Virus record (IMG/VR): IMGVR_UViG_3300028797_000135
Span: 1 to 64,000 of that record
Direction: 5' to 3' (one strand)
Length of the DNA: 64,000 nucleotides
Source of the DNA: a virus
Taxonomy: Duplodnaviria; Caudoviricetes
Below, piece by piece: positions 4,032-32,489 of this stretch. The stretch's first letter is position 1. Each line of letters begins with the position of its first letter. The notes beneath the pieces are model-generated. The model did no database searches. It worked only from the letters and a program-made list of their open reading frames with translations, and was not told where the DNA came from. A program made the translations under genes and the position numbers.

Positions 4032-4313
4032 TCAATCTCCTTGAATTTCACATTCATCAAGCTTCTTGTCAAGCTTAATCTTTTGTTTTTCCTTGAACGT
4101 CCTAACACTTTCGTCGCATCGGACCTTAGTGTTGGATTCAGTCAGGCTGCACATCCTGTAATAATCGTCCATAGTAAAGCCATACTCTTTCAAGACCCTA
4201 TCACGATGTGCAGCCCATTCGGCAACAGTAACCCTTCTCGGAATAACCGAGTCGATTTCCTTCAGACACTTTTGCAGTCTGTTGTAGTATCTATCCTTTT
4301 GCGAATTTTTCAT
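4032..4313 (-). CDS. hypothetical protein
   Basis: operon packing; start MKNSQK. Confidence 0.5.
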   Translation of the reverse strand: MKNSQKDRYYNRLQKCLKEIDSVIPRRVTVAEWAAHRDRVLKEYGFTMDDYYRMCSLTESNTKVRCDESVRTFKEKQKIKLDKKLDECEIQGD

Positions 4314-4329: not shown

Positions 4330-4554
4330 CTATTTGATTTTGAATCCCTTTGATTTAAACTTGTAGCCGAACGCCTTGCCATCATTGGCGCAACCAACTT
4401 CGCCCGCCATGATATACATTCGCTCCTGTATCGAATGAACTAAATCCTTCTCAACTGCTTTCACAAGCTCATCATCCGAAAGTCCGAAACTGCTGTAAGT
4501 TTCAACTTCAAGGTCTATTACCACTCGTTTCTTAATCAATATCGGTTTTGGCAT
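4330..4554 (-). CDS. hypothetical protein
   Basis: AAGGA RBS; operon packing. Confidence 0.55.
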   Translation of the reverse strand: MPKPILIKKRVVIDLEVETYSSFGLSDDELVKAVEKDLVHSIQERMYIMAGEVGCANDGKAFGYKFKSKGFKIK

Positions 4555-22523: not shown

Positions 22524-22552
22524 GAGATTTTATCTTTCGGCTTTGCAATTAG

Positions 22553-22627
22553 TACCCGAGACAGGATTCGAACCTTGTGACCCTCTGCTTAGAAGGCAGA
22601 CGCTCTGTCCAGCTGAGCTACTCGGGC
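22553..22627 (-). tRNA. tRNA-Arg(TCT)
   Basis: cloverleaf; loop CT-TCT-AA. Confidence 0.9.
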
Positions 22628-22638
22628 AAGTTCATTCG

Positions 22639-22712
22639 TCGGCAGAGTGGGACTCGAACCCACAAAATCTTGGGTTTGAACCAAGCACGTATACCAGTTC
22701 CATCACCTGCCG
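22639..22712 (-). tRNA. tRNA-Leu(CAA), lacks long variable arm
   Basis: loop TT-CAA-AC; Leu-type D arm; 5-nt variable loop. Confidence 0.75.
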
Positions 22713-22719
22713 AATTTAG

Positions 22720-22803
22720 TCGGTAAGGGGGGACTCGAACCCCCACGTCCTTACGGACACCAGCCCCTCAAGCTGGTGCGCCTACCAGTTCCGCCACCTA
22801 CCG
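22720..22803 (-). tRNA. tRNA-Leu(GAG)
   Basis: cloverleaf with long variable arm. Confidence 0.9.
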
Positions 22804-22817
22804 ATGCGAGAAAATAA

Positions 22818-22900
22818 TCGGCAAGGTGGGACTCGAACCCACACGCCCTTTCGAGCACCAGCTCCTAAGGCTGGAGTGTCTTCCATTCCACCACTAACCG
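22818..22900 (-). tRNA. tRNA-Leu(TAG)
   Basis: cloverleaf with long variable arm. Confidence 0.9.
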
Positions 22901-22909
22901 AAATTTTAG

Positions 22910-22982
22910 CAGGGCGTGATGGACTCGAACCACCGAGTAACAGTTTTGGAGACTGCAGACCTACCAACTGGTCGAACGCCCT
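22910..22982 (-). tRNA. tRNA-Trp(CCA)
   Basis: loop CT-CCA-AA. Confidence 0.88.
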
Positions 22983-23031
22983 AAAAAGCGGATGGCCTTT
23001 CGGCCACCCTAATGTCTAACGAACAAAGAAA

Positions 23032-24372
23032 TTACTCTTCGCTCTTTGCACCCATCTTCTCGTACTCAGCGATGTACTTGAAGATACCGTCGCTGAATCC
23101 GTTGATGTGGATGAAGTCACCGTAAGAGATTCCGAACTGGTGCGGAGCCACGTTCACGATGTACTTGTGCGGGATGCGGAGAACATCCTTGGTGAAAGAA
23201 CCACCAATAGACTGCTCGTCGGTGATGATAATCACACGGTCAAACGGTCTGGTGTTAGCTCTAACAGCACTGTTTGTACAACCGTAAAGGTCAGTACCGC
23301 CAACGCAACGAGCACAACGGTCGGCAAGCGCAAAGCCCTTGGATGTGGTTGCGTGTGCATCCATATCGAAGGTGTAAACCTTGTCAAACTCACAGACCTC
23401 ATCCATGATGGCAGCGAGAGATGCGGCAGCCTCTCCACGAGTGACTTCGCTCTTACCTGCCAAATGGTTGTCCATAGAACCCGACGTATCGACCATGAAC
23501 AGGGTGTTACCCTCCAACTTGTCGAACGTCTCACGAGCGGCCTTCAACATTGCTGCCTCAAGCTGCTTGGAGTAGGTTCCGTCGCTGTACTTGTTTGCTG
23601 TGTAGAAGTTGTACGGCATGATGCCCTTCACGTTCAACTTCGAGATGCCATCCACGATTGCTCGCTGTGACACCTTTGCCTGCTCCATGTTGCGGAGGTT
23701 CCTCAACAGGGCGAGGGCACCCAGCTTGTTCGTTGAAAGAAGGTTCTCGAAGACCGTCTTCTTGTCCTTACCAGCGCTCAACTCGGTCTCCCAAGTAAGC
23801 GGAGTAGCAAGGCTGTTGTCTACAATCTTCTTGTAGAGAGCGTTCTTCTCGTCATTCGGTGCCTTCGGGTGGCACAGCATGACTGCATCCTTCAATGACA
23901 CATTCTTCTTGTTACCCTTGTACTTACCGAACTGGTACTCGTCGAACTTGTCGAACGACATAGCCAAGCCCTTCTGCAACTGCTTCGGAAGTGTCTTCTT
24001 CTTGCCGTCTGCGAGGTACATGGCGAGCAACTCGGTGATGTCATCAACACGGGTTACCGTCGAGTAAACAAGTTCCTTAGTCAGCTTACCCTGACTTGCG
24101 AGCACAGTAAGCATGAACAACGGGGTATGACGAAGGTGATACTCGTGCTTGGCCTTGTTCAGAGTTGCGATTGCAAACTCGTTGCTGACCTTGCCCATGT
24201 ATTCCTTGATGCGGTCCTTGATGGACTCTCCGTCCTCATAGAACGTATCCTCGTTCAGGAGGCAGCACAGCACAGTACGCTGCAACTTCTCCTCGAAACC
24301 GATGTGTGAAGCCTTTCCACCCTCGTGAGTGAACACAGGGGTAGATACCTTTCTCTTGTTAATCGACGCCAT
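23032..24372 (-). CDS. Ro60/Rsr TROVE-domain RNA-binding protein with vWA domain
   Basis: THEGG…L.R..LCCLL.E.TFYE, FD.YQF.KY…SLKD…HPK, TWE.ELS, ALLRNLRN, DTSGSM MIDAS, GGTD, IIITDEQ. Confidence 0.92.
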   Translation of the reverse strand: MASINKRKVSTPVFTHEGGKASHIGFEEKLQRTVLCCLLNEDTFYEDGESIKDRIKEYMGKVSNEFAIATLNKAKHEYHLRHTPLFMLTVLASQGKLTKELVYSTVTRVDDITELLAMYLADGKKKTLPKQLQKGLAMSFDKFDEYQFGKYKGNKKNVSLKDAVMLCHPKAPNDEKNALYKKIVDNSLATPLTWETELSAGKDKKTVFENLLSTNKLGALALLRNLRNMEQAKVSQRAIVDGISKLNVKGIMPYNFYTANKYSDGTYSKQLEAAMLKAARETFDKLEGNTLFMVDTSGSMDNHLAGKSEVTRGEAAASLAAIMDEVCEFDKVYTFDMDAHATTSKGFALADRCARCVGGTDLYGCTNSAVRANTRPFDRVIIITDEQSIGGSFTKDVLRIPHKYIVNVAPHQFGISYGDFIHINGFSDGIFKYIAEYEKMGAKSEE

Positions 24373-24423
24373 AATCATCTCCTTTGTTGTGATTAGGAAT
24401 TGTTGTTGATGTTAAAAAAGTAT

Positions 24424-24559
24424 TGCCAGATGTCGGACTCGGACCGACAACCTCCTGGATGATTCCTAAGTAACACATTTCATACACCACAATCCATGGG
24501 ATTGGGAAAAGCGAAAGTGCTGTTTTTGGCCTGGAGCTCTACCATTGAGCTAATCTGGC
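24424..24559 (-). ncRNA. tRNA-Y-module chimera 1 (no anticodon loop)
   Basis: acceptor GCCAGAT/ATCTGGC, D and T arms; anticodon loop replaced by CACTTTCGCTTTTCC-CAATCC-cat-GGATTG-T-GG-TGTAT-GAAATGTG-TTACTT module. Confidence 0.75.
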
Positions 24560-24572
24560 GTAAAGAAAAACA

Positions 24573-24724
24573 TGCCGACGGAAAGAGTCGAACTTTCAAA
24601 AGATTAATGTTATGGCAATCTAAGTAACTCTCACGTCGCAACGATTTTCACCGAGAAAGTTGTAAGAGGAACCCTCCCCTACCGTTAATCAACCTGTCGC
24701 CAGATTGACGGGGAGGCGTCGGCA
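24573..24724 (-). ncRNA. tRNA-Y-module chimera 2 (extended D-like arm)
   Basis: acceptor TGCCGACG/CGTCGGCA, T arm GAAAG-TTCGACT-CTTTC; module CTCTTAC…CGGT-GAAA-ATCG-T-TG…GTGAGAG-TTACTT. Confidence 0.65.
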
Positions 24725-24731
24725 TGTGTTA

Positions 24732-24806
24732 AGTGGTTAATGGGATTTGAACCCATGTCTTCAGCATGGCAAGCTGACACATTAGACCAGACTATGTTAC
24801 AACCAC
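24732..24806 (-). tRNA. tRNA-Gly(GCC)
   Basis: loop TT-GCC-AT; U73. Confidence 0.88.
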
Positions 24807-24820
24807 GAAAAAATTATTAG

Positions 24821-24954
24821 TCCCACAGGCAGGATTTGAACCTACGACATCCAGTCACCATTATCGAAGTAAGCCATCCATACGTCACCTTTGCAGGGAA
24901 AAAAGCGAAAGGCTATTCATTTACTAGCGCTCTACCAGACTGAGCTACTGTGGG
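24821..24954 (-). ncRNA. tRNA-Y-module chimera 3 (no anticodon loop)
   Basis: acceptor CCCACAG/CTGTGGG, D and T arms; module AGCCTTTCGCTTTTTTC-CCT-GCAA-AGG-T-GA-CGTAT-GGATGGC-TTACTT. Confidence 0.75.
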
Positions 24955-24962
24955 AAAATTAG

Positions 24963-25046
24963 AGGAGGGAACAGGGTTCGAACCTGCGTGTCGTCACCGA
25001 CAAAGCTTTAGCAAAGCTCCGCTTTTACCAATTCAGCCATCCCTCC
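24963..25046 (-). tRNA. tRNA-Ser(GCT)
   Basis: cloverleaf with long variable arm. Confidence 0.88.
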
Positions 25047-25051
25047 ATTAG

Positions 25052-25125
25052 TGTGCTTGGCCAGAATCGAACTGGCGACCTACAGTTTAGGAAACTGTTG
25101 CTCTATCCAACTGAGCTACAAGCAC
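25052..25125 (-). tRNA. tRNA-Arg(CCT)
   Basis: loop TT-CCT-AA. Confidence 0.9.
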
Positions 25126-25133
25126 AATCGGAA

Positions 25134-25439
25134 TTACTGTTTCGGACCGACAACGTGTTTAATCGTGACCTTTTCCTTTCCAGCAAAAACTTCAACAGAT
25201 AGCGTACATGTGTGCGTATCCTTGTCGAAAGTGTCCCAAGCACGCCACATCTTGACACCGTTGTTTATTGTCGCCTTACGATAAATGTCGTAAACGGCAT
25301 CGAGAACTTCACGCCTAGACGCTTCGCCATCCTTGAACAATAGTTTGTTTTCGCAAAGCTTTTCCACTTGCGGTTCTACGATAGCCTTTACTGCGGCGAG
25401 AGCCTGTGAAGCATGCACTTTATCCAATGTTGTACTCAT
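25134..25439 (-). CDS. hypothetical protein, paralog A in tRNA operon
   Basis: GGAG RBS; G.K.WR.WD.F.KDTHT.T..VE.F.GK motif shared with neighbour. Confidence 0.7.
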   Translation of the reverse strand: MSTTLDKVHASQALAAVKAIVEPQVEKLCENKLLFKDGEASRREVLDAVYDIYRKATINNGVKMWRAWDTFDKDTHTCTLSVEVFAGKEKVTIKHVVGPKQ

Positions 25440-25456
25440 AGAGTCTCCATTACTGT

Positions 25457-25750
25457 TTAATCAACATCGGCAGGTTTAGCCGTGTGTTCCAGCACGAGCT
25501 TATTCTTGCCCTTGAAGATTTCCACCGTCACCGTGTAGGTGTGGGTGTCCTTGTTGAACTTATCCCAGACACGCCAGAGCTTGGCTCCATGGGCAGCGGC
25601 TGCGGGCTGATACAGGTCGTAGACCTTGTTCAGAATATCCCTGTTGGGCGATGTAGCATTCTTGAAGATAGCCTTATCTTCAAGAATCTTTGTCATCTTG
25701 TATTCAACAAGAGATGGTGCGAAATCCACATCTTTCTTCGAGAAATTCAT
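25457..25750 (-). CDS. hypothetical protein, paralog B in tRNA operon
   Basis: AAGGAG RBS before MNFSKK; same motif as paralog A. Confidence 0.7.
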   Translation of the reverse strand: MNFSKKDVDFAPSLVEYKMTKILEDKAIFKNATSPNRDILNKVYDLYQPAAAAHGAKLWRVWDKFNKDTHTYTVTVEIFKGKNKLVLEHTAKPADVD

Positions 25751-25778
25751 AGAATCTCCTTTGATTTTGAAAATGTTA

Positions 25779-25864
25779 AGCACAAGGTAAGATTCGGACT
25801 TACGTGAGCCTTTCGGCCTAGAGGTTTTGCAGACCTCCCCCTTCGACCACTTGGGTACTTGCGC
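25779..25864 (-). tRNA. tRNA-Cys(GCA) with atypical long variable arm
   Basis: loop CT-GCA-AA; U73; variable arm GGCC-GAAA-GGCT. Confidence 0.75.
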
Positions 25865-25867
25865 TAA

Positions 25868-26465
25868 AATCCATTCTCTTTCGTAACGAGCTGAATGGTA
25901 AGCCGTGCCATTGTATGGCAATCATCCGCACCTATGCGCAAATCAACACGGCCAGTTTTCGGTTTCACCGCAGGGAACAGTACCTGATTGAAAACATGAA
26001 GTCGTCTGTTATCTTGACATAATGCACCTCTTGCAGCAACATTGCTGTACCCGCCCTCATTAAGGACCTGCCTCTATTCGGAACGGCGGCTGCAATTCTT
26101 TGTCGGCGCATGCGGGCTTTAATACCTGCATCCCTTCAAGCAATATATCCTGTTAGAAAGAACAGGAACTTGTGCATCATCTTCTTCCCTTGGCTTCCAC
26201 ACCTTGAATGAGAGCAGTCTGCCCTCACCGATTTGGGTTTAACTAATCGGGATGATGCATCGGGAATCACACGGATAGTAGCATGCCAGTCACGGTGAAC
26301 TATCTGCGTCCTATCCATAACTACCGCCAACTGCATTGTGGCGAAGACGGCAGTCATTTTTAGTGATTGTGGAAAATCTTGTCGGCACCCGTTATGTGGC
26401 TTTCGCCGCAACCTTTGGATTTTACAACGTGTCGTGAAACACATGACCATCTTTCAGTGCCTATT
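25868..26465 (-). ncRNA. candidate ~600-nt highly structured ncRNA
   Basis: no credible ORF; many nested helices (GGCAC/GTGCC, GGC-GAAA-GCC, TGCATCATC/GATGATGCA, ATGACTGCCG/CGGTAGTTAT). Confidence 0.5.
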
Positions 26466-26468
26466 TAG

Positions 26469-26541
26469 TTGGGGTAGCTGGACTCGAACCAACGAATATG
26501 GGAATCAAAATCCCATGTCTTACCAACTTGACGATACCCCA
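26469..26541 (-). tRNA. tRNA-Gln(TTG)
   Basis: loop TT-TTG-AT. Confidence 0.9.
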
Positions 26542-26551
26542 GTAAATGTAG

Positions 26552-26627
26552 TGCTCCATCAAGGACTCGAACCTTGGACCCGATGCTTAAGAGGCAACTG
26601 CTCTAACCAAAACTGAGCTAATGAAGC
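26552..26627 (-). tRNA. tRNA-Lys(CTT)
   Basis: loop CT-CTT-AA. Confidence 0.88.
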
Positions 26628-26636
26628 GAAACTTCG

Positions 26637-26709
<73 letters not shown>

Positions 26710-26713
26710 ATAG

Positions 26714-26786
26714 AGCGGATAATGGGACTCGAACCCACAACAACCTGCTTGGAGGGCAGGAACTCTACCAATTGAGCTACATCCGC
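26714..26786 (-). tRNA. tRNA-Gly(TCC)
   Basis: loop CC-TCC-AA; U73. Confidence 0.88.
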
Positions 26787-26793
26787 ATATTAG

Positions 26794-26863
26794 TTAACCT
26801 TCATGAAATCGAATCATGACACAGGACGAACCGAAGTCCGAACTGCACCAAACCTGGAGGCTA
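26794..26863 (-). pseudogene. degenerate tRNA-like element
   Basis: T arm CATGA-TTCGATT-TCATG, weak acceptor TAGCCTC/AAGGTTA, CTA trailer; D arm collapsed. Confidence 0.35.
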
Positions 26864-27112
26864 GGATATGTACACTTTCCATTGTGCAATCAGCTCTTTG
26901 GGACGCTGACACCCCACCTTCATCTCGGGACGGTGCGAAACGCTATCTACTGGCCACTCGCCAAGGCATAGAATTACTCCTTATGTGAAGTTCACCCGCA
27001 TTACCAGATACGGTTTGCGACGCCATATCCTTCCTGCCCTTTTTACTTCCAACTTTAGAGGCCGTTTGCTTCACATGTCTGCACAGCAAACAAACGGTAA
27101 GAAAGCAAGCTC

Positions 27113-27186
27113 TGGGACCTCTCGGACTTGAACCGAGAACCGACGGGTTATGAGTCCGTAGCTCTCACCAATTGAGCTAAAGTCCC
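27113..27186 (-). tRNA. tRNA-Ile2/Met(CAT), probably Ile2
   Basis: loop CT-CAT-AA; GGG acceptor start. Confidence 0.8.
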
Positions 27187-27457
27187 TAACTCGCATTTGT
27201 TCCTTCGCATTTCGACAATGGCGTTTGTCAATCTGCTATCATAATCCCTTTTACATTTGTTTTCTGAAAGGGAACTTGCGCTGTGCGAAACAGCCGTTTA
27301 CAAAACAGAAACTTCATCGGAGCGACCGATATATCCGCAAGAATCACCGTATGTCATTTCACCACATCCAGCCACGGAATGGATACTCCGACGGTTCAGT
27401 GTGCCACCTGCGATTTGGCACCGTTTGCTGCTACGCTGAAACGGAAAGATTGTTTAG

Positions 27458-27583
27458 ACCCAGCGACAGGACTCGAACCTGTGACCACGAGTTTTGCAGA
27501 CTAAGTAACCCACTCTATCACAACCCTTGCGGGAGAAAAAGCGAACAGGTTTTTACGGGCTCTACCAACTGAGCTACACTGGG
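27458..27583 (-). ncRNA. tRNA-Cys(GCA) interrupted by 53-nt Y-module between positions 28 and 29
   Basis: removing 27503-27555 gives 73-nt tRNA with CGAGT-CTGCAAA-ACTCG arm and U73. Confidence 0.8.
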
Positions 27584-27586
27584 GAA

Positions 27587-27676
27587 ATCCAGGTAAAAAG
27601 GCGAAACCGATTACGCCCGTTAGGGCAAATCTGTGTGAAAGACAGAGCGAAGTAACGGTTTCTATCGACACTGGAT
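27587..27676 (-). ncRNA. free Y-RNA-like ncRNA A
   Basis: 5'/3' ends pair: ATCCAG-T-GT-CGATA-GAAACCG-TTACTT … CGGTTTC-GCCTTTTT-AC-CTGGAT. Confidence 0.7.
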
Positions 27677-27688
27677 GAAATTTATTAG

Positions 27689-27819
27689 TACCAGGAGCAG
27701 GACTCGAACCTACGACCCCGAGCTTAACAGGCTAAGTAACCCAACCAAAACGCCACCCTTGTACAGGGGAAAATTAGGACAGGTATTTTACGTGCTCTAA
27801 CCAACTGAGCTATCCTGGA
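27689..27819 (-). ncRNA. tRNA-Asn(GTT) interrupted by 57-nt Y-module between positions 28 and 29
   Basis: removing 27734-27790 gives 74-nt tRNA with CGAGC-CTGTTAA-GCTCG arm. Confidence 0.8.
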
Positions 27820-27826
27820 ATAAAAG

Positions 27827-27903
27827 AAGTCAGGTAAAAAGCGAAAGCGTGTTCTTTTTGCAGAGAATTCATCCTAAGTAACGCTTTCTAGCGACACTGA
27901 CTT
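27827..27903 (-). ncRNA. free Y-RNA-like ncRNA B
   Basis: AAGTCAG-T-GT-CGCTA-GAAAGCG-TTACTT … CGCTTTC-GCTTTTT-AC-CTGACTT. Confidence 0.7.
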
Positions 27904-27907
27904 TTAA

Positions 27908-27996
27908 TGGGTTGGATAGGAGTCGAACCTACAATGTTTACCCTAAGGGACCAGTTTTACAGACTGGTGCGAAACCACCATCCTCGCAGCCAACCC
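27908..27996 (-). tRNA. tRNA-Tyr(GTA)
   Basis: loop CT-GTA-AA; variable arm. Confidence 0.85.
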
Positions 27997-28239
27997 AAAG
28001 AAAAAGAAATAATGATACTCGACCCGAGGGGACTCATGTTTGCCTAACCTGCAGGTTAACCGCCCACTGTCGCACCGCACACCTGTGGCCCACATCGATT
28101 CAGCATACATTAACGGTCGCCCAGTCAGTCAATCGGCAGAATATCTCTGTCTCGGACTAGCACATCCAAAGCCGATTTAATCGCCACCGACTATTGTTGC
28201 TCCAATGAATCGGTTGTATGCTTGTATCATTAATTTTAG

Positions 28240-28312
28240 TGGAGCCATCGGGACTCGAACCCGAAACACCCAGCTTGCAAAGCTGGTACTCTACCAATTG
28301 AGCTATGACCCC
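28240..28312 (-). tRNA. tRNA-Ala(TGC)
   Basis: G3:U70; loop TT-TGC-AA. Confidence 0.92.
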
Positions 28313-28372
28313 ATAATTGCAAAACCGAACTGTCAAATTGCGAGCTAACATCTCGTGTCAACCACGTTCGGA

Positions 28373-28401
28373 AATATAGAAAGATAATTGACAACTGTCA
28401 A
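28373..28401 (-). promoter_or_regulatory. sigma70-type promoter driving the Y-RNA/Ro60 half of the operon
   Basis: TTGACA-N17-TATATT. Confidence 0.75.
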
Positions 28402-28464
28402 CCCGTTTTGTCAAAAAAGTTGAAAATTTGACAAAAATCTTTGTTTGTCAAAAACTTGTCAGCG

Positions 28465-28546
28465 TCGGGTTAGTGAGACTCGAACTCACACTCCTCTCAG
28501 AACACCGCCCTGAACGGTGAGCGTCTACCAATTCCGCCACAACCCG
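28465..28546 (-). tRNA. tRNA-Leu(CAG)
   Basis: cloverleaf with variable arm. Confidence 0.9.
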
Positions 28547-28552
28547 ATTTAA

Positions 28553-28625
28553 TTGCGGAGAACGGACTTGAACCGTTGACACACGGATTATGATTCCGTT
28601 GCTCTACCAACTGAGCTACACCGCA
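28553..28625 (-). tRNA. tRNA-Met(CAT) elongator
   Basis: loop AT-CAT-AA. Confidence 0.8.
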
Positions 28626-28800
28626 TTAAGTAATAACGCTTTTAGGCGCACTTGCCATTCATATCAGGTACGTTACCGTGAGCAATCTCAAACGTCTTCC
28701 GTTGTCGTCGATTGCAACCTCGGGTTCGTAAAGACCTCGCATCTTTCAACCCGTCACTAGCTCTTTTGCGAGAAGAACACTAATGGACCTTTAAACTTAG

Positions 28801-28885
28801 CGGAAGATGAGGGAGTCGAACCCCCAAGCAGTTTTACCCACGGCGGTTTTCAAGACCGCTGCCTTACCAGTTAGGCTAATCTTCC
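28801..28885 (-). tRNA. tRNA-Ser(TGA)
   Basis: long variable arm; G73. Confidence 0.9.
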
Positions 28886-28901
28886 AATGAAAAAAATCTA
28901 G

Positions 28902-28975
28902 TGCTCTCGGCAGGACTCGAACCTGCAACCTCACGGTTCGTAGCCGTGCGCTCTATCCAGTTGAGCTACGAGAGC
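28902..28975 (-). tRNA. tRNA-Arg(ACG)
   Basis: loop CT-ACG-AA. Confidence 0.92.
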
Positions 28976-29145
28976 ATAAAATGGCGGCGTTTTAGCCTGT
29001 CACCGAGCAGGGGTCACGTTCTCCGACATCCCATGTCCGTCTCGACATGATTGACTTAATTGACGGAGACCGCCTTGCAAGAGCAAAAACTTGCCATAGA
29101 ACAGCGGATAAACTATGACCATTTTTATACTGTTTTTGATTTTAG

Positions 29146-29216
29146 TCCGCCAGTCGAGATTCGAACCCGAACTAAGGGAATCACAATCCCTTGTGCTACC
29201 GTTACACCACTGAGGG
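29146..29216 (-). tRNA. tRNA-His(GTG), atypical (A73, no G-1)
   Basis: loop TT-GTG-AT. Confidence 0.75.
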
Positions 29217-29226
29217 GGTAAATTCG

Positions 29227-29299
29227 TACTCCCGAGAGGGTTTGAACCTCTGACCCCTTGTGTGTAAAACAAGCGCTCTCCCAACTGAGCTACGAGAGT
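29227..29299 (-). tRNA. tRNA-Val(TAC)
   Basis: loop TT-TAC-AC. Confidence 0.92.
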
Positions 29300-29306
29300 A
29301 TATTAG

Positions 29307-29389
29307 CGCAACCAGCGAGACTTGAACTCGCACGCCCATAGGACACCAGCGTGACAGGCTGGCCTGGCTACCAATTTCAGCATGGCTGC
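29307..29389 (-). tRNA. tRNA-Asp(GTC) with atypical long variable arm
   Basis: loop CT-GTC-AC; G73; variable arm TGTCC-TAT-GGGCG. Confidence 0.75.
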
Positions 29390-29398
29390 AAAAAAGAA

Positions 29399-29518
29399 GG
29401 TGCTTACTATACGTTTTGACTGGACTCGAACCAGCATTCCCTCCACCAACACCGTTGGCAGCTTTCAGTTATCGTAGATAACTTTTATAAAAGCGCAAAA
29501 TAGAATATAATAAGCACC
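29399..29518 (-). ncRNA. tRNA-like ncRNA with extended terminal stem
   Basis: GGTGCTTA/TAAGCACC ends; T arm GCTGG-TTCGAGT-CCAGT; two further hairpins. Confidence 0.5.
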
Positions 29519-29529
29519 AGATTTTATAA

Positions 29530-29603
29530 TAGCTCCATCGGGGCTCGAACCCGAATTTCCGCCTTGAGAGGGCGGCGAACTAAGCCAGTTATTCTATGGA
29601 GCC
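29530..29603 (-). tRNA. tRNA-Glu(CTC)
   Basis: loop CT-CTC-AA. Confidence 0.88.
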
Positions 29604-29885
29604 GAAATTTATTTAAACACAAACTTACAGGCGTCCTAATTTCAAGGACGGATTAAGGAGCACACTTGGTGGTTAACCCAAAGTTTATCTCCCCCATTCT
29701 TATTTCAAATGGTCTCACGTGGCATATTTTAGTAGAGCCAATACTACACCTCTGCGACCATCATTCTGGTATTCATCTAATTCGCAGAGACAGATTCCTC
29801 ATCCCAGAGTTTTCCCCATCTGGGTTAGCCCGCTAGCATGAAATCAAGAATGATGCAACACGGGTTCTACTCATTTGTGTTTTAG

Positions 29886-29959
29886 TCGGAATGGCAGGAT
29901 TTGAACCTACGACCTCTTGCTCCCGAAGCAAGCGCTCTACCAGACTGAGCTAGATTCCG
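29886..29959 (-). tRNA. tRNA-Pro(CGG)
   Basis: loop TT-CGG-GA. Confidence 0.9.
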
Positions 29960-30192
29960 AAAGTTTGATGAATTCGAGGAGCTGCGGGGGTTACGGCATC
30001 CTTTCCGCTTGTCGCCGAGGCCATCGGTTTGTCATCTATGTTGCGAACGGGCTCACCTACTAGCCCTTACATAGACCGAAGATGGTTATCGTTACCATTT
30101 AATAGCAGGCTTCATCACGCCTCCCGTCCATCGATATCCGAACGAAACGGGTCTGGCCCTCAATGACGGACATTTAGCCAGATGTTTTCTAA

Positions 30193-30265
30193 CTCCGACA
30201 GTAAGACTCGAACTTACGACCTGAGCTTTACGAAAGCCCTGCTCTACCAGCTGAGCTACGTCGGA
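30193..30265 (-). tRNA. tRNA-Thr(CGT)
   Basis: loop TT-CGT-AA. Confidence 0.88.
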
Positions 30266-30271
30266 ATGTAG

Positions 30272-30345
30272 TAGCGCCAACGGGACTCGAACCCGTATTG
30301 CCGCCTTGAAAGGGCGATGAACTAGGCCAGTTATTCGATAGCGCC
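30272..30345 (-). tRNA. tRNA-Glu(TTC)
   Basis: loop CT-TTC-AA. Confidence 0.88.
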
Positions 30346-30356
30346 AAAAAATGTAG

Positions 30357-30430
30357 TCCGCAACCCTGGACTCGAACCAGGAACCTCCACCTTATCAGAG
30401 TGGCTATCTAACCAATTGCTATAGCTGCGG
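30357..30430 (-). tRNA. tRNA-Ile(GAT)
   Basis: loop CT-GAT-AA. Confidence 0.85.
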
Positions 30431-30508
30431 ATAAACGCATAGGTGGGTGGTTTAGAACCACCAAAATCCCACACGGTGGGCACCTACTTTATTTCACCTA
30501 TGGTTTAG

Positions 30509-30582
30509 TGCCGCCGAGAGGAGTCGAACCTCTGACGCTAGGTGCTTCAAACCTACGCTCTACCAAACTGAGCTACAGCGGC
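30509..30582 (-). tRNA. tRNA-Phe(GAA)
   Basis: loop TT-GAA-GC. Confidence 0.88.
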
Positions 30583-30684
30583 AAAAATGATTGTCCAAGA
30601 ATCGTGAAGGAATTTAACCTTCCACTTGATAGGCTTCGAACTTTACCAAATGCCGTCATGACGACCCTTGGACAATCGAATTAG

Positions 30685-30758
30685 TAGCGGGGGCAGGACT
30701 CGAACGCTGCGACCTTTGGGTTATGAGCCCAACAAGCTACCAACTGCTCCACCCCGCA
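30685..30758 (-). tRNA. initiator tRNA-fMet(CAT)
   Basis: GGG/CCC anticodon stem; 1:72 mismatch. Confidence 0.85.
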
Positions 30759-30771
30759 AATTTCTTCATAG

Positions 30772-30844
30772 TTGCCGATGAGCGGTTCGAACGCCCGAAT
30801 ACAGGAGTCAGAGTCCTGTGCCTTACCAGCTTGGCGAATCGGCA
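30772..30844 (-). tRNA. tRNA-Gln(CTG)
   Basis: loop CT-CTG-AC. Confidence 0.9.
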
Positions 30845-30852
30845 ATAAATAG

Positions 30853-30923
30853 CTCACGTTAAAGGAATCGAACCTTTGTTTCCCGCTGCAGACAGGCAAC
30901 TCTTCCAGTTAAGCTAAACGTGA
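30853..30923 (-). tRNA. tRNA-like gene with aberrant anticodon arm (undetermined)
   Basis: perfect acceptor TCACGTT/AACGTGA, D and T arms; arm CCTGT-CTGCA-GCGGG has 5-nt loop. Confidence 0.55.
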
Positions 30924-30938
30924 ATAAAAATAAATTAG

Positions 30939-31011
30939 CGCCTGCGGAGAGGCTCGAACTCCCGACCCGCTCATTACAAATGAGCCGCTCTACCAACTGA
31001 GCTACCCAGGC
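30939..31011 (-). tRNA. tRNA-Thr(TGT)
   Basis: loop TT-TGT-AA. Confidence 0.88.
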
Positions 31012-31291
31012 AAAAATGTGAAGAACGGTCGATATCCGCACAAGTGGACAAAAAACTTCACTGATGCATGGTCTATCTGACTTATACAAGCATTGGACGC
31101 CAGGACCTTCATCTTCTCCGCAGAGCAAATGCTAAACACCTGCGAAGCCCCGTTTTTAAATGCTCAGGCTACTAAACAGCTCTTTTCGGATGGGTTCCCA
31201 CGGCGTAGCGACCGCCACGATTATCACACCCTATTAGGAGCCGTTTTTCACCTGCGGACTTCTCTGGGAGCTACCCAAAGTTCCAATTTAG

Positions 31292-31364
31292 CTGGCAAGA
31301 CAGGACTCGAACCTGTGACCAAGCGATTAACAGTCGCCCCCTCTACCAACTGAGGTACATGCCA
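31292..31364 (-). tRNA. tRNA-Asn(GTT), intact
   Basis: loop CT-GTT-AA; G73. Confidence 0.9.
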
Positions 31365-31676
31365 ATAATATCCACGGGCACCACCCCTTTCACGTGTTGT
31401 CACGGGTGCGACAGGATTGGTCGCAGAGAGCTTTACTCAAAACTCACGAACCTACCATAATTAACGAGTGATAACCCCGTATGGAGGCAACAGACCAGCC
31501 ATTCAACCCTGTACCATAATATTCAGTTTGTTTTAGGTGATGGTCTCGGCATCCCATGGTTAACCACATAGGAGCCGCCAAACTGACAAAACCACTTTTC
31601 CACAAGCGCATGGCCGAAGTGCCATGCGCAGTAGTCATCATTATGGTGGAGAAATCTCCACCATGCTGAAATCTTA

Positions 31677-32234
31677 TTAGAGACCTAACGTCGGGTCACG
31701 AGCAATATCCTTGAAGAACTTCGGGGTCTTCGGATTCATACCAAGGTCCCTATCTTTACCTAAACCAAGGTATTTATTATACTCACTGGCAGCTTCTTTG
31801 TCAACATCAACAGGAGCAACCTTCAATGCACTAATATTATAGTGATAGTCTCCATATCCATTTGGTTTCTTTGATGAGCTCAATGTAACAACCATATTTG
31901 GTTCATCAACGATAACTTCATGGTTTGGGATGCTTTTAAAATAGTCAATGCGCTTTTCGAATTCATCTGGGCGGAACGGTTCTCTATACCACGTATCAAG
32001 ATGGTTCATAATTTCATTTACATCCAATTCTTCCCGTGGCTTTTTTGACAAAAAGTTCTGAGATGCAAAATACAAGCCATCACCCTCATGATATTTCTGA
32101 GGTTCAGCCAAGCCTTCCGCTTCACACAATGCCTTAAAGCCCTCTTTCAGAGCTGGCAGAGCTGGCATGCAGTTAAACTCATTACATACGCTTTCCATAA
32201 AAGCAGTATATTCCTTTTTTTGACGGTAATCCAT
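31677..32234 (-). CDS. late hypothetical protein with variant leader
   Basis: GGAG RBS; TATAAACTAT at 32264-32273; FMESVC…FKALCE. Confidence 0.65.
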   Translation of the reverse strand: MDYRQKKEYTAFMESVCNEFNCMPALPALKEGFKALCEAEGLAEPQKYHEGDGLYFASQNFLSKKPREELDVNEIMNHLDTWYREPFRPDEFEKRIDYFKSIPNHEVIVDEPNMVVTLSSSKKPNGYGDYHYNISALKVAPVDVDKEAASEYNKYLGLGKDRDLGMNPKTPKFFKDIARDPTLGL

Positions 32235-32415
32235 GATTACTCTCCATAAATGTAATTACACACATAGTTTATAATCATGAATCATCCGAGTAGCGCATTA
32301 CTGGGCCATCCATACAGCCTTCCCAGCCTCTATCCCGCAACTTATGCTACTGCACTAGCCCCAAAAGGATATACCTTGGACGGGCTTACTTGTATCATCT
32401 CCACTCGAACAATAG

Positions 32416-32489
32416 TCGGGGTAGCCAGATTCGAACTGACGACATCCTGCTCCCAAAGCAGGCGCTCTACCAGACTGAGCTACACCCCG
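32416..32489 (-). tRNA. tRNA-Pro(TGG)
   Basis: loop TT-TGG-GA. Confidence 0.92.

What the first reader, a model, noticed from the sequence alone, without database searches (positions are those of the whole stretch)
27458..27819. tRNA-Cys and tRNA-Asn interrupted at the same non-canonical site (28/29) by the Y-like module
Seen: both genes read D-arm, N, CG, [TAAAA…GGGTTACTT], AG(T/C), 7-nt anticodon loop. Deleting 27503-27555 (53 nt) gives a 73-nt tRNA with CGAGT-CT GCA AA-ACTCG and the Cys discriminator U73. Deleting 27734-27790 (57 nt) gives a 74-nt tRNA with CGAGC-CT GTT AA-GCTCG. The insert boundaries are identical in the two genes. Established: bacterial tRNA introns are mostly large self-splicing introns in or near the anticodon loop, and these short inserts do not look like those. 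Inference: they are either a new class of small protein-spliced intron or permanent three-way-junction tRNAs presenting an anticodon plus a Ro60 handle. Intact Cys and Asn tRNAs exist elsewhere in the operon (25779, 31292), which favours a non-decoding role.
Basis: partly seen in the sequence, partly recalled or inferred. Interest (0 to 1): 0.88.

Follow-up and report, generated by a model that had tools for sequence, protein, structure and literature searches.

The report
tRNA-shaped Ro60 partner RNAs in phage
The two "interrupted tRNA genes" are most likely not tRNAs with introns but permanent small RNAs: a complete tRNA body, still carrying an anticodon-like hairpin, with the binding handle for the phage's own Ro60 protein built into its anticodon stem. 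This layout recurs in many unrelated phages, including the cultured gut phage crAss001.

Summary
Observation confirmed. On the minus strand, 27458-27583 (A) and 27689-27819 (B) are full cloverleaves. Their anticodon stem is split between positions 28 and 29 by a 53- or 57-nt structured insert. Deleting the insert gives ARAGORN tRNA-Cys(GCA) and tRNA-Asn(GUU).

The insert matches the Ro60 (Rsr)-binding module of YrlA-type Y RNAs. A Ro60 gene (23032-24378) lies inside the same tRNA array.

A and B are tandem paralogues of each other (82% identical once the insert is removed). So the shared insertion site reflects common descent, not two separate insertions.

The same layout occurs in at least eight other phage lineages, with anticodon-like loops resembling Asn, Lys, Glu, Arg and His. 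One is an unannotated RNA next to the TROVE gene of crAss001.

Across 77 phage YrlA-like RNAs, pairs 27-43 and 28-42 both form in 69. Shuffles give 21.5 on average. The hairpin loop carries the anticodon-loop signature: 7 nt, U33 in 54 of 54, purine 37 in 53 of 54. So the published "V stem-loop" of YrlA reads as a split anticodon arm. A and B are YrlA with the opposite circular permutation and free acceptor ends.

The intron reading is poorly supported: no bulge-helix-bulge motif, no splicing endonuclease, and tRNA identity elements drift between orthologues.

Verdict: a new variant of a known kind. This scan has noted similar tRNA-shaped Ro60 partner RNAs on other DNA.

The parts
27458..27583 (-). 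RNA A: tRNA-topology Y RNA (126 nt) with a GCA anticodon-like loop. Insert at 27503-27555, hairpin loop at 27493-27499, bridging pairs C27 G28 (27557-27556) with C42 G43 (27489-27488).
   Evidence: ARAGORN Cys after deletion; eight orthologues; model R1, 126.9 bits.
27689..27819 (-). RNA B: tRNA-topology Y RNA (131 nt) with a GUU anticodon-like loop. Insert at 27734-27790, hairpin loop at 27724-27730, U1.U72 mismatch.
   Evidence: loop CUGUUAA invariant in eight genomes; 123.7 bits.
27503..27555 (-). Insert of A, the Rsr-binding-type module. Order: U-rich strand, GNRA-capped hairpin (CCC GCAA GGG), strand carrying G-U-G-A-U-A-G, then GGGUUACUU.
   Evidence: helix with G-U to G-C changes; strand consensus shared with permuted YrlA-like RNAs.
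27734..27790 (-). Insert of B, the same module with G-G-C-G-U-U-U-U-G-G followed by GGGUUACUU.
27588..27675 (-). S1: free-standing Y-RNA-like stem-loop (YrlB-like). It has the same two strands in the opposite order, with the ends in the handle.
27830..27903 (-). S2: second free-standing Y-RNA-like stem-loop.
24821..24954 (-). RNA C: tRNA body with an intact 5-bp anticodon stem whose loop is replaced by the module. No conserved anticodon hairpin.
   Evidence: Rfam tRNA 46.9 bits with a 67-nt insert; 82.3 bits.
24424..24559 (-). RNA D: tRNA body with the module and a degenerate 6-nt-loop hairpin, directly upstream of the Ro60 start codon.
   Evidence: 45.6 bits; 68.1 bits.
24573..24724 (-). S3: third free-standing module region, between C/tRNA-Gly and D.
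23032..24378 (-). Ro60/Rsr orthologue (448 aa, TROVE domain).
   Evidence: PF05731, 58 bits; 5843 homologues; phage phiLo Ro60 structures 9KOP/9L5Y, E 7e-24 over residues 12-438.
25778..25865 (-). The array's own tRNA-Cys(GCA), 88 nt. Not the parent of A.
31291..31364 (-). The array's own tRNA-Asn(GUU), 74 nt.
   Evidence: 73-74% identical to A and B without insert.

Best explanation
A and B are mature, non-decoding Y RNAs of the YrlA kind, built in tRNA topology.

They are transcribed with the tRNA array. The enzymes that mature tRNAs cut them out: RNase P at the 5' end, then 3' trimming and CCA addition. The result is RNAs of about 126 and 131 nt that keep the insert.

The insert is a closed stem-loop carrying the Ro60-binding strand, and it binds the phage's Rsr. 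The tRNA body has a free acceptor end, an elbow, and a composite 5-bp anticodon stem with a 7-nt loop. It serves as the stable effector module that docks a tRNA-recognising partner, or gates the Ro60 ring.

Relative to published YrlA the molecule is circularly permuted. The acceptor stem is open instead of closed. The far end of the handle is closed by a hairpin instead of holding the termini.

Shown: the anatomy, its conservation and covariation, the neighbouring Ro60 gene, and the match to the YrlA handle.
Inferred: Rsr binding, processing, retention of the insert in the mature RNA, and the partner.
For: 1. Ro60 gene in the array. A Ro60-like gene lies within the held stretch for 9 of 13 tRNA-topology loci and 37 of 56 permuted loci.

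2. Insert strand consensus G-K-K-G-Y-G-W-A-G followed by GUUACUU is shared with permuted YrlA-like RNAs. It resembles the GNCGAAN0-1G motif that Chen et al. 2014 (PMC4201824) tie to Rsr contact.

3. In more than 60 permuted relatives the same junction is part of an RNA whose ends lie in the handle. [quoted passage not shown]

4. The structure holds across 22 tRNA-topology RNAs: 93.5% of cells paired, against 68.6% shuffled and about 43% slid; 23 of 29 pairs show compensatory change; all 7 acceptor pairs covary.

5. Decoding constraints are relaxed. A's discriminator is U, A or G. A's loop is 8 nt in four relatives. B has U1.U72. C and D have lost the hairpin.

6. A, B and C carry the same N73-CUA trailer as most of the array's tRNAs. 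Complete relatives encode a CCA-adding-family enzyme.

7. Contigs from an RNA library bridge A with the insert in place (records 17 and 18; DNA carry-over not excluded).
Against: No direct evidence for the mature RNA size, for Rsr binding or for the absence of charging.

The anticodon-like loops keep a full anticodon-loop signature. Two lineages encode CCA after the discriminator. That fits an RNA still handled as a tRNA.

RtcB, the ligase of protein-dependent tRNA splicing, is present in complete relatives.

Three fragmentary records with such RNAs show no TROVE gene, but they are only 12-46% complete.

Rfam's YrlA model does not match A or B. It also fails on canonical phage YrlAs such as those of CcrColossus.
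Confidence: 0.72

Rival explanations
1. Small protein-spliced introns. An unknown endonuclease cuts at 28/29 on both sides of the insert, RtcB joins the halves, and ordinary decoding tRNA-Cys and tRNA-Asn result.
For: Exact deletion gives canonical cloverleaves here and in seven other lineages. RtcB is encoded by complete relatives. The anticodon loops look functional.
Against: - The junction is a three-way junction, not a bulge-helix-bulge.
- No EndA-family gene in two complete genomes.
- The insert is conserved in sequence as a Ro60 handle.
- In permuted relatives the same module holds the RNA termini.
- A's discriminator and loop drift.
- Intact Cys and Asn tRNAs already exist.
- RtcB lies about 39 kb from the locus and is common in jumbo phages as a repair enzyme (PMC7824862).
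Confidence: 0.06
2. Unspliced but decoding. The RNAs are charged and used on the ribosome with the extra arm in place, possibly carrying Ro60 along.
For: Full acceptor stems with discriminator. CCA encoded in L101 and L129. Anticodon-loop signature U33 and R37. B's loop invariant in eight genomes.
Against: - A roughly 55-nt helix leaving the anticodon stem at 28/29 should clash with the 30S subunit. This is inference from known ribosome-tRNA contacts, not tested.
- B has a U1.U72 mismatch.
- A's U73, the main CysRS determinant (established knowledge), is not conserved.
- 8- and 9-nt loops occur in orthologues.
Confidence: 0.06
3. Processing shells only. The tRNA body merely recruits RNase P and 3' processing to release and stabilise the handle. 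The hairpin is a relic with no partner of its own.
For: C and D, and one RNA in L129, work without the hairpin. Free-standing modules lie between tRNA-like units, so tRNA processing would release them. Chen et al. 2014 also propose nuclease protection as a role of the tRNA fold.
Against: The hairpin keeps 7-nt loops with invariant U33, and the bridging pairs covary across 77 RNAs. A relic would not do so. Loops are conserved within clades.
Confidence: 0.14

Closest known systems
YrlA, the tRNA-like bacterial and phage Y RNA bound by Rsr/Ro60 (Rfam RF02553; Chen et al. 2014, PMC4201824; Wang et al. 2018, bioRxiv 10.1101/312249)
   Same: Encoded next to Ro60. Handle with the conserved purine-rich strand followed by UACUU. 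D arm, T arm, 5-nt variable loop and acceptor helix with tRNA tertiary nucleotides. The handle leaves the body at the anticodon stem.
   Different: Circular permutation. YrlA has its ends in the handle and a closed acceptor stem-loop, and is described as lacking a free CCA end and an anticodon loop. A and B have free acceptor ends, a hairpin-closed handle and an anticodon-like stem-loop. RF02553 does not match them.
[quoted passage not shown]
   Same: Ends up with open acceptor ends and a CCA tail while still bound to Rsr. This shows that a Y RNA can be handled as a tRNA.
   Different: It becomes a two-piece RNA held together by the handle. A and B would be one continuous chain.
The 'V' stem-loop of YrlA RNAs, interpreted as a class II variable arm (PMC4201824; 10.1101/312249)
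   Same: Same hairpin in the same place, between UACUU and the T arm.
   Different: Here it is followed by two nucleotides that pair with 27-28, then by an ordinary 5-nt variable loop. Its loop is 7 nt with U33 and R37. It therefore reads as the lower part of a split anticodon arm, not as a variable arm.
Thermus phage phiLo Ro60 with Yrl1 and Yrl2 (PMC12135203; PDB 9KOP, 9L5Y)
   Same: Phage Ro60 with RNAs encoded just upstream, shown to bind in vitro. It is the closest solved relative of the window's protein.
   Different: Yrl1 and Yrl2 are plain stem-bulge-stem RNAs with ends in the stem, like S1-S3 here. No tRNA body is reported.
Archaeal bulge-helix-bulge tRNA introns at non-canonical positions, and permuted or split tRNA genes (own knowledge, not tested against a reference here)
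   Same: Short inserts inside tRNA stems. Ligation by RtcB.
   Different: They need a bulge-helix-bulge motif and an EndA endonuclease. Neither is present (and inspection of the junction). No bacterial or phage example is known to me.
D. radiodurans Yrn1 (PMC4201824)
   Same: Y RNA with T-arm-like and D-arm-like parts and a possible anticodon arm.
   Different: Its ends lie in a handle that takes the acceptor position. It has a 6-nt loop and no variable arm.

Membership tests
YrlA-type Y RNA | Encoded beside an Rsr/Ro60 (TROVE) gene | tested here: met
   rsr at 23032-24378, with A-D and S1-S3 within 3.5 kb upstream on the same strand. 9 of 13 tRNA-topology loci hold an Rsr-like gene.
YrlA-type Y RNA | Handle whose purine-rich strand carries the GNCGAAN0-1G-like motif | tested here: inconclusive
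   A has G-U-G-A-U-A-G and B has G-G-C-G-U-U-U-U-G. The family consensus here is G-Y-G-W-A-G, which is close to but not identical with the published motif. 51 of 77 strands fit G-N-Y-G-N2-4-G.
YrlA-type Y RNA | tRNA-like domain with D and T arms and tertiary nucleotides | tested here: met
   U8, A14, G18 G19, G15 with C48, and T-loop UUCGAGU all read directly. Model R1 and the pair counts agree.
YrlA-type Y RNA | 5' and 3' ends in the handle, acceptor stem closed by a loop | tested here: not met
   Opposite arrangement. The handle is closed by a hairpin, and the covarying 7-bp acceptor stem joins the two ends of the unit.
YrlA-type Y RNA | Match to Rfam RF02553 at its gathering score | tested here: not met
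   No match over A or B even at E up to 10. The model also fails on CcrColossus and 14 other loci, so it is a weak criterion.
YrlA-type Y RNA | Bound by Rsr in cells | not testable with these tools
   Needs pull-down or gel-shift experiments.
Decoding tRNA | Contiguous cloverleaf recognised by tRNA finders | tested here: not met
   ARAGORN finds nothing in the native sequences. Rfam tRNA scores 16.4 and 21.2 bits, below 29.
Decoding tRNA | Identity elements conserved among orthologues | tested here: not met
   A's discriminator is U, A or G, and its loop is GCA or an 8-nt loop. B has U1.U72.
Protein-spliced (bulge-helix-bulge) tRNA intron | Two 3-nt bulges separated by 4 bp, each holding a splice site | tested here: not met
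   By inspection and alignment A1. The 5' boundary lies at a helix end with no bulge. The A-rich bulge lies 3' of the short basal helix and is not conserved (absent in L013).
Protein-spliced (bulge-helix-bulge) tRNA intron | Splicing endonuclease (PF01974) and a ligase in the genome | tested here: not met
   No PF01974 in two complete relatives. RtcB is present. No PF09414 ligase.
Group I or group II self-splicing intron | Catalytic core of hundreds of nucleotides | tested here: not met
   Inserts are 53 and 57 nt. No intron family in the Rfam scans.

The most novel reading that the evidence does not exclude
The RNAs are live tRNA mimics with a purpose. CCA-tailed and perhaps charged, each shows a specific anticodon arm (Asn-, Cys-, Lys-, Glu-, Arg-like in different phages) on a Ro60 particle. 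The phage could then soak up or sense host enzymes that attack anticodon loops (anticodon nucleases) or modify them, or bring Ro60 and an exonuclease to tRNA-handling machinery.

If so, the published 'variable arm' of YrlA is an anticodon arm throughout the family. YrlA would then have arisen from such interrupted tRNAs by tandem duplication and circular permutation.
Probability: 0.22. Interest if true: 0.85.

Novelty: new variant of a known kind. Interest (0 to 1): 0.64.

Why it matters
What the tRNA-like half of bacterial Y RNAs is for has been open since 2014. The published accounts state that YrlA has neither a free CCA end nor an anticodon loop.

These phage RNAs have both. The covariation found here suggests the anticodon arm was present across the family all along, labelled as a variable arm. 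That turns a vague "tRNA mimic" into precise, testable questions:
- Are they CCA-tailed or charged?
- Which enzyme reads the loop?
- Do they protect the phage from tRNA-cleaving defence systems?

There is a cultured system to test this in, crAss001 on Bacteroides intestinalis. The finding also offers a simple origin for YrlA: an interrupted tRNA, then tandem duplication, then permutation. Practically, annotators will miss these genes or miscall them as tRNAs with long inserts.

Tried and rejected
- **Single-sequence folding of A and B.** z-scores of -0.78 and -0.08. Uninformative, so comparative analysis was used instead.
- **Rfam YrlA model.** No match at A or B. The only matches in the array region were weak, spurious ones spanning adjacent tRNAs. 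It also misses canonical phage YrlAs, so its silence means little.
- **Sliding the deletion boundaries by up to 3 nt.** ARAGORN still calls tRNAs for most variants. The program cannot fix the boundary; the 5-bp composite stem and the covariation do.
- **Metatranscriptome contigs from four RNA runs.** No joint removing exactly 27503-27555 or 27734-27790. The joint 27724->27792 carries eight foreign letters and only 21 letters on one side, so it is probably another organism's tRNA. The joint 27541->27779 is an A/B recombinant in a relative. Contigs cannot show small RNAs or rare forms, so the absence of spliced forms is not evidence.
- **RtcB in the 99-kb record.** Absent, but the record is only 24% complete. 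It is present in complete relatives.
- **TROVE in the records of L017, L022 and L101.** None found, but these are 12-46% complete fragments.
- **D-arm sequence as a family hallmark.** 13 of the 35 ordinary tRNAs in the array share it. Not discriminating.
- **An alternative G28-C pairing (GUAA with UUAC) that would make the hairpin a variable arm.** Rejected. Position 28 covaries with 42 (G-C, U-A, C-G, A-U) while the C of UUACUU stays fixed.
- **Literature.** Two Y-RNA reviews (PMC10870794, PMC6047535) are not held. I therefore cannot exclude that the tRNA-topology form is mentioned there.
- **BLAST of the region against cultured phages.** Only the neighbouring tRNA-Tyr matched.

Full report
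**Setting.** The window is the first 64 kb of a 99-kb virus record, estimated 24% complete. The closest relatives are 419- and 422-kb records with terminal repeats, so this is a jumbo phage. Public runs that hold the DNA are bovine and sheep gut metagenomes. The minus strand between 22.5 and 32.5 kb carries 35 ARAGORN tRNAs. Inside that array sits a 448-aa ORF (23032-24378) with a TROVE domain (58 bits). It has thousands of Ro60/Rsr homologues. Its closest solved relative is the Ro60 of Thermus phage phiLo, a protein shown to bind Y-RNA-like RNAs (PMC12135203).

On the minus strand, A (27583->27458) and B (27819->27689) each read in this order: 7-bp acceptor stem, D arm, N26, C27 G28, an insert of 53 or 57 nt, three nucleotides, a 7-nt loop (CUGCAAA or CUGUUAA), three pairing nucleotides, C42 G43, a 5-nt variable loop, T arm, acceptor 3' strand, discriminator. 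All the usual tertiary nucleotides are present. ARAGORN sees nothing in the native sequences. After the exact deletions it calls tRNA-Cys(gca) and tRNA-Asn(gtt). Rfam's tRNA model scores the native RNAs below threshold.

**Two further tRNA-like genes carry the same module.** C (24821-24954) and D (24424-24559) have the module in place of the anticodon loop. Three free-standing stem-loops (S1, S2, S3) carry the same two strands in the opposite order.

**A and B are paralogues, not two hits on two tRNAs.** Without the insert they are 82% identical to each other, and only 73-74% identical to the array's tRNA-Asn. A is unrelated to the array's 88-nt tRNA-Cys. The shared insertion site is therefore inherited.

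**Orthologues show which parts are constrained.** Seven related phage records (Rsr 84-97% identical) keep A, B, C, D and S1-S3 in the same order.
- B's loop is invariant.
- A's loop is CUGCAAA in four genomes and an 8-nt AUUAGGAA in the other four.
- A's discriminator is U, A or G.
- B has a U1.U72 mismatch throughout.
- The hairpins of C and D vary in length.

These are not the constraints of decoding tRNAs.

**The insert matches the YrlA handle.** A scan of viral contigs for GTTACTT followed by a T arm returned more than 117 stretches. Most are YrlA-like RNAs in the published, permuted order: purine-rich strand, GUUACUU, hairpin, variable loop, T arm, closed acceptor hairpin, D arm, U-rich strand. 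CcrColossus, named in the literature as having Y RNAs, has six such units upstream of its Ro60 gene. The strand consensus G-K-K-G-Y-G-W-A-G ... GUUACUU is the same in the permuted and the tRNA-topology RNAs. It resembles the GNCGAAN0-1G motif linked to Rsr contact (PMC4201824). An Rsr-like gene lies within the held DNA for 37 of 56 permuted loci and 9 of 13 tRNA-topology loci.

**The tRNA topology is widespread.** Units with a covarying 7-bp acceptor stem, a D arm, pairs 27-28, the module, a 3-bp hairpin, pairs 42-43, a variable loop and a T arm occur in L013, L017, L022, L065, L074, L079, L101, L129 and crAss001. L013 lies directly upstream of an Rsr that is 45% identical to the window's.
- Removing their inserts gives ARAGORN tRNAs with Glu, Asn (twice), Lys (twice), Arg and His anticodons.
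- L101 and L129 encode CCA after the discriminator.
- The crAss001 RNA lies in an unannotated gap after the TROVE gene gp96. Rfam scores it as a 144-nt tRNA.
- I found no paper describing it. The TROVE gene is reported as an early gene (PMC8375218).

**The hairpin is a split anticodon arm.** Over 77 non-redundant RNAs, pairs 27-43 and 28-42 both form in 69 when the variable loop is taken as 5 nt. In slid registers they form in 6-27. Shuffles give 21.5 +/- 3.5, with a maximum of 33. At least nine pair combinations occur.
- The hairpin has a 7-nt loop in 54 of 58 cases.
- U33 is present in 54 of 54, a purine at 37 in 53 of 54, and A38 in 50 of 54.
- U36 always goes with A37, and G36 always with G37, as in real tRNAs.

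On 22 tRNA-topology RNAs aligned to model R1, 93.5% of cells pair, against 68.6% shuffled and about 43% slid. 23 of 29 pairs show compensatory change. That alignment was fitted to the model, which favours the structure. The published accounts call this hairpin 'V', a variable arm, and state that YrlA lacks an anticodon loop and a free CCA end. My reading differs on the first point for the phage RNAs examined here. I have not tested the bacterial set.

**Intron or permanent?**

Against splicing:
- The junction is a three-way junction without bulge-helix-bulge geometry.
- Two complete relatives lack an EndA-family gene.
- The module is conserved as a protein handle.
- In the permuted relatives the module holds the RNA's ends.

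For splicing:
- RtcB is present in complete relatives. However, RtcB is a common repair enzyme of jumbo phages.

Metatranscriptome contigs bridge unspliced A and show no excision joint. Contigs cannot settle this.

**Most likely working.** The RNAs are cut from the array transcript by tRNA-processing enzymes. A, B and C share the N73-CUA trailer with most of the array's tRNAs, and relatives encode a CCA-adding-family enzyme. They keep the insert, bind Rsr through it, and present a tRNA body with an anticodon-like arm to a partner that is still unknown. Binding, processing and partner are inferences.

A tandem pair of such units, read from the handle of the first to the handle of the second, gives exactly the published YrlA order. 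That suggests how the two topologies are related. The direction of change is untested.

**Prior notes in this scan.** The scan has recorded tRNA-shaped Ro60 partner RNAs on other DNA and the whole locus on this window. Those are unchecked notes. What I tested myself is stated above.

Noticed in passing
window 25868-26465 (and 26904-27400): Metatranscriptome contigs cover 25912-26283 at depths of 526-1288 (X13) and 239-532 (X22), against about 56-60 over the start of the Ro60 gene (24300-24423). 26904-27400 is also high, at 350-1100. The non-coding stretch between tRNA-Gln and tRNA-Cys that another note flags as an ornate RNA therefore appears strongly transcribed.
   Followed up: no
window 25778-25865, 27907-27997, 29306-29389: Oddly long tRNAs: Cys(GCA) of 88 nt with a long variable arm, Tyr(GUA) of 91 nt that Rfam scores best as tRNA-Sec-like (34.6 bits, below cut-off), and Asp(GUC) of 84 nt.
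   Followed up: no
window 27541-27779: One RNA-library contig (run X13, depth 384) joins A's 3' part to B's 5' part with four other letters between. So a relative carries a single A/B recombinant unit and lacks S1. L003 and L007 also carry an A-type insert inside B. The paralogues exchange sequence.
   Followed up: partly
L133 (crAss001, MH675552.1) 4088-4231 and about 4340-4490: Two unannotated RNAs lie downstream of TROVE gene gp96. The first is a full tRNA-topology unit with a 9-nt hairpin loop. The second keeps the acceptor and T arms but has no ordinary D arm.
   Followed up: partly
L129 3650-4214: An unrelated small viral contig repeats the whole locus plan: Ro60 gene, three free-standing handle RNAs, then two tRNA-topology units (one without the hairpin, one with it). 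The latter ends in discriminator C plus an encoded CCA.
   Followed up: partly
L134 (Caulobacter phage CcrColossus) 1500-2400: Six tandem YrlA-like units lie upstream of the Ro60 gene. One was annotated as tRNA-Gln in the record. None reaches Rfam's YrlA gathering score.
   Followed up: partly
window 22552-32489: Most of the array's tRNAs are followed by the same trailer, C-U-A after the discriminator. This may be a shared 3'-processing signal.
   Followed up: no
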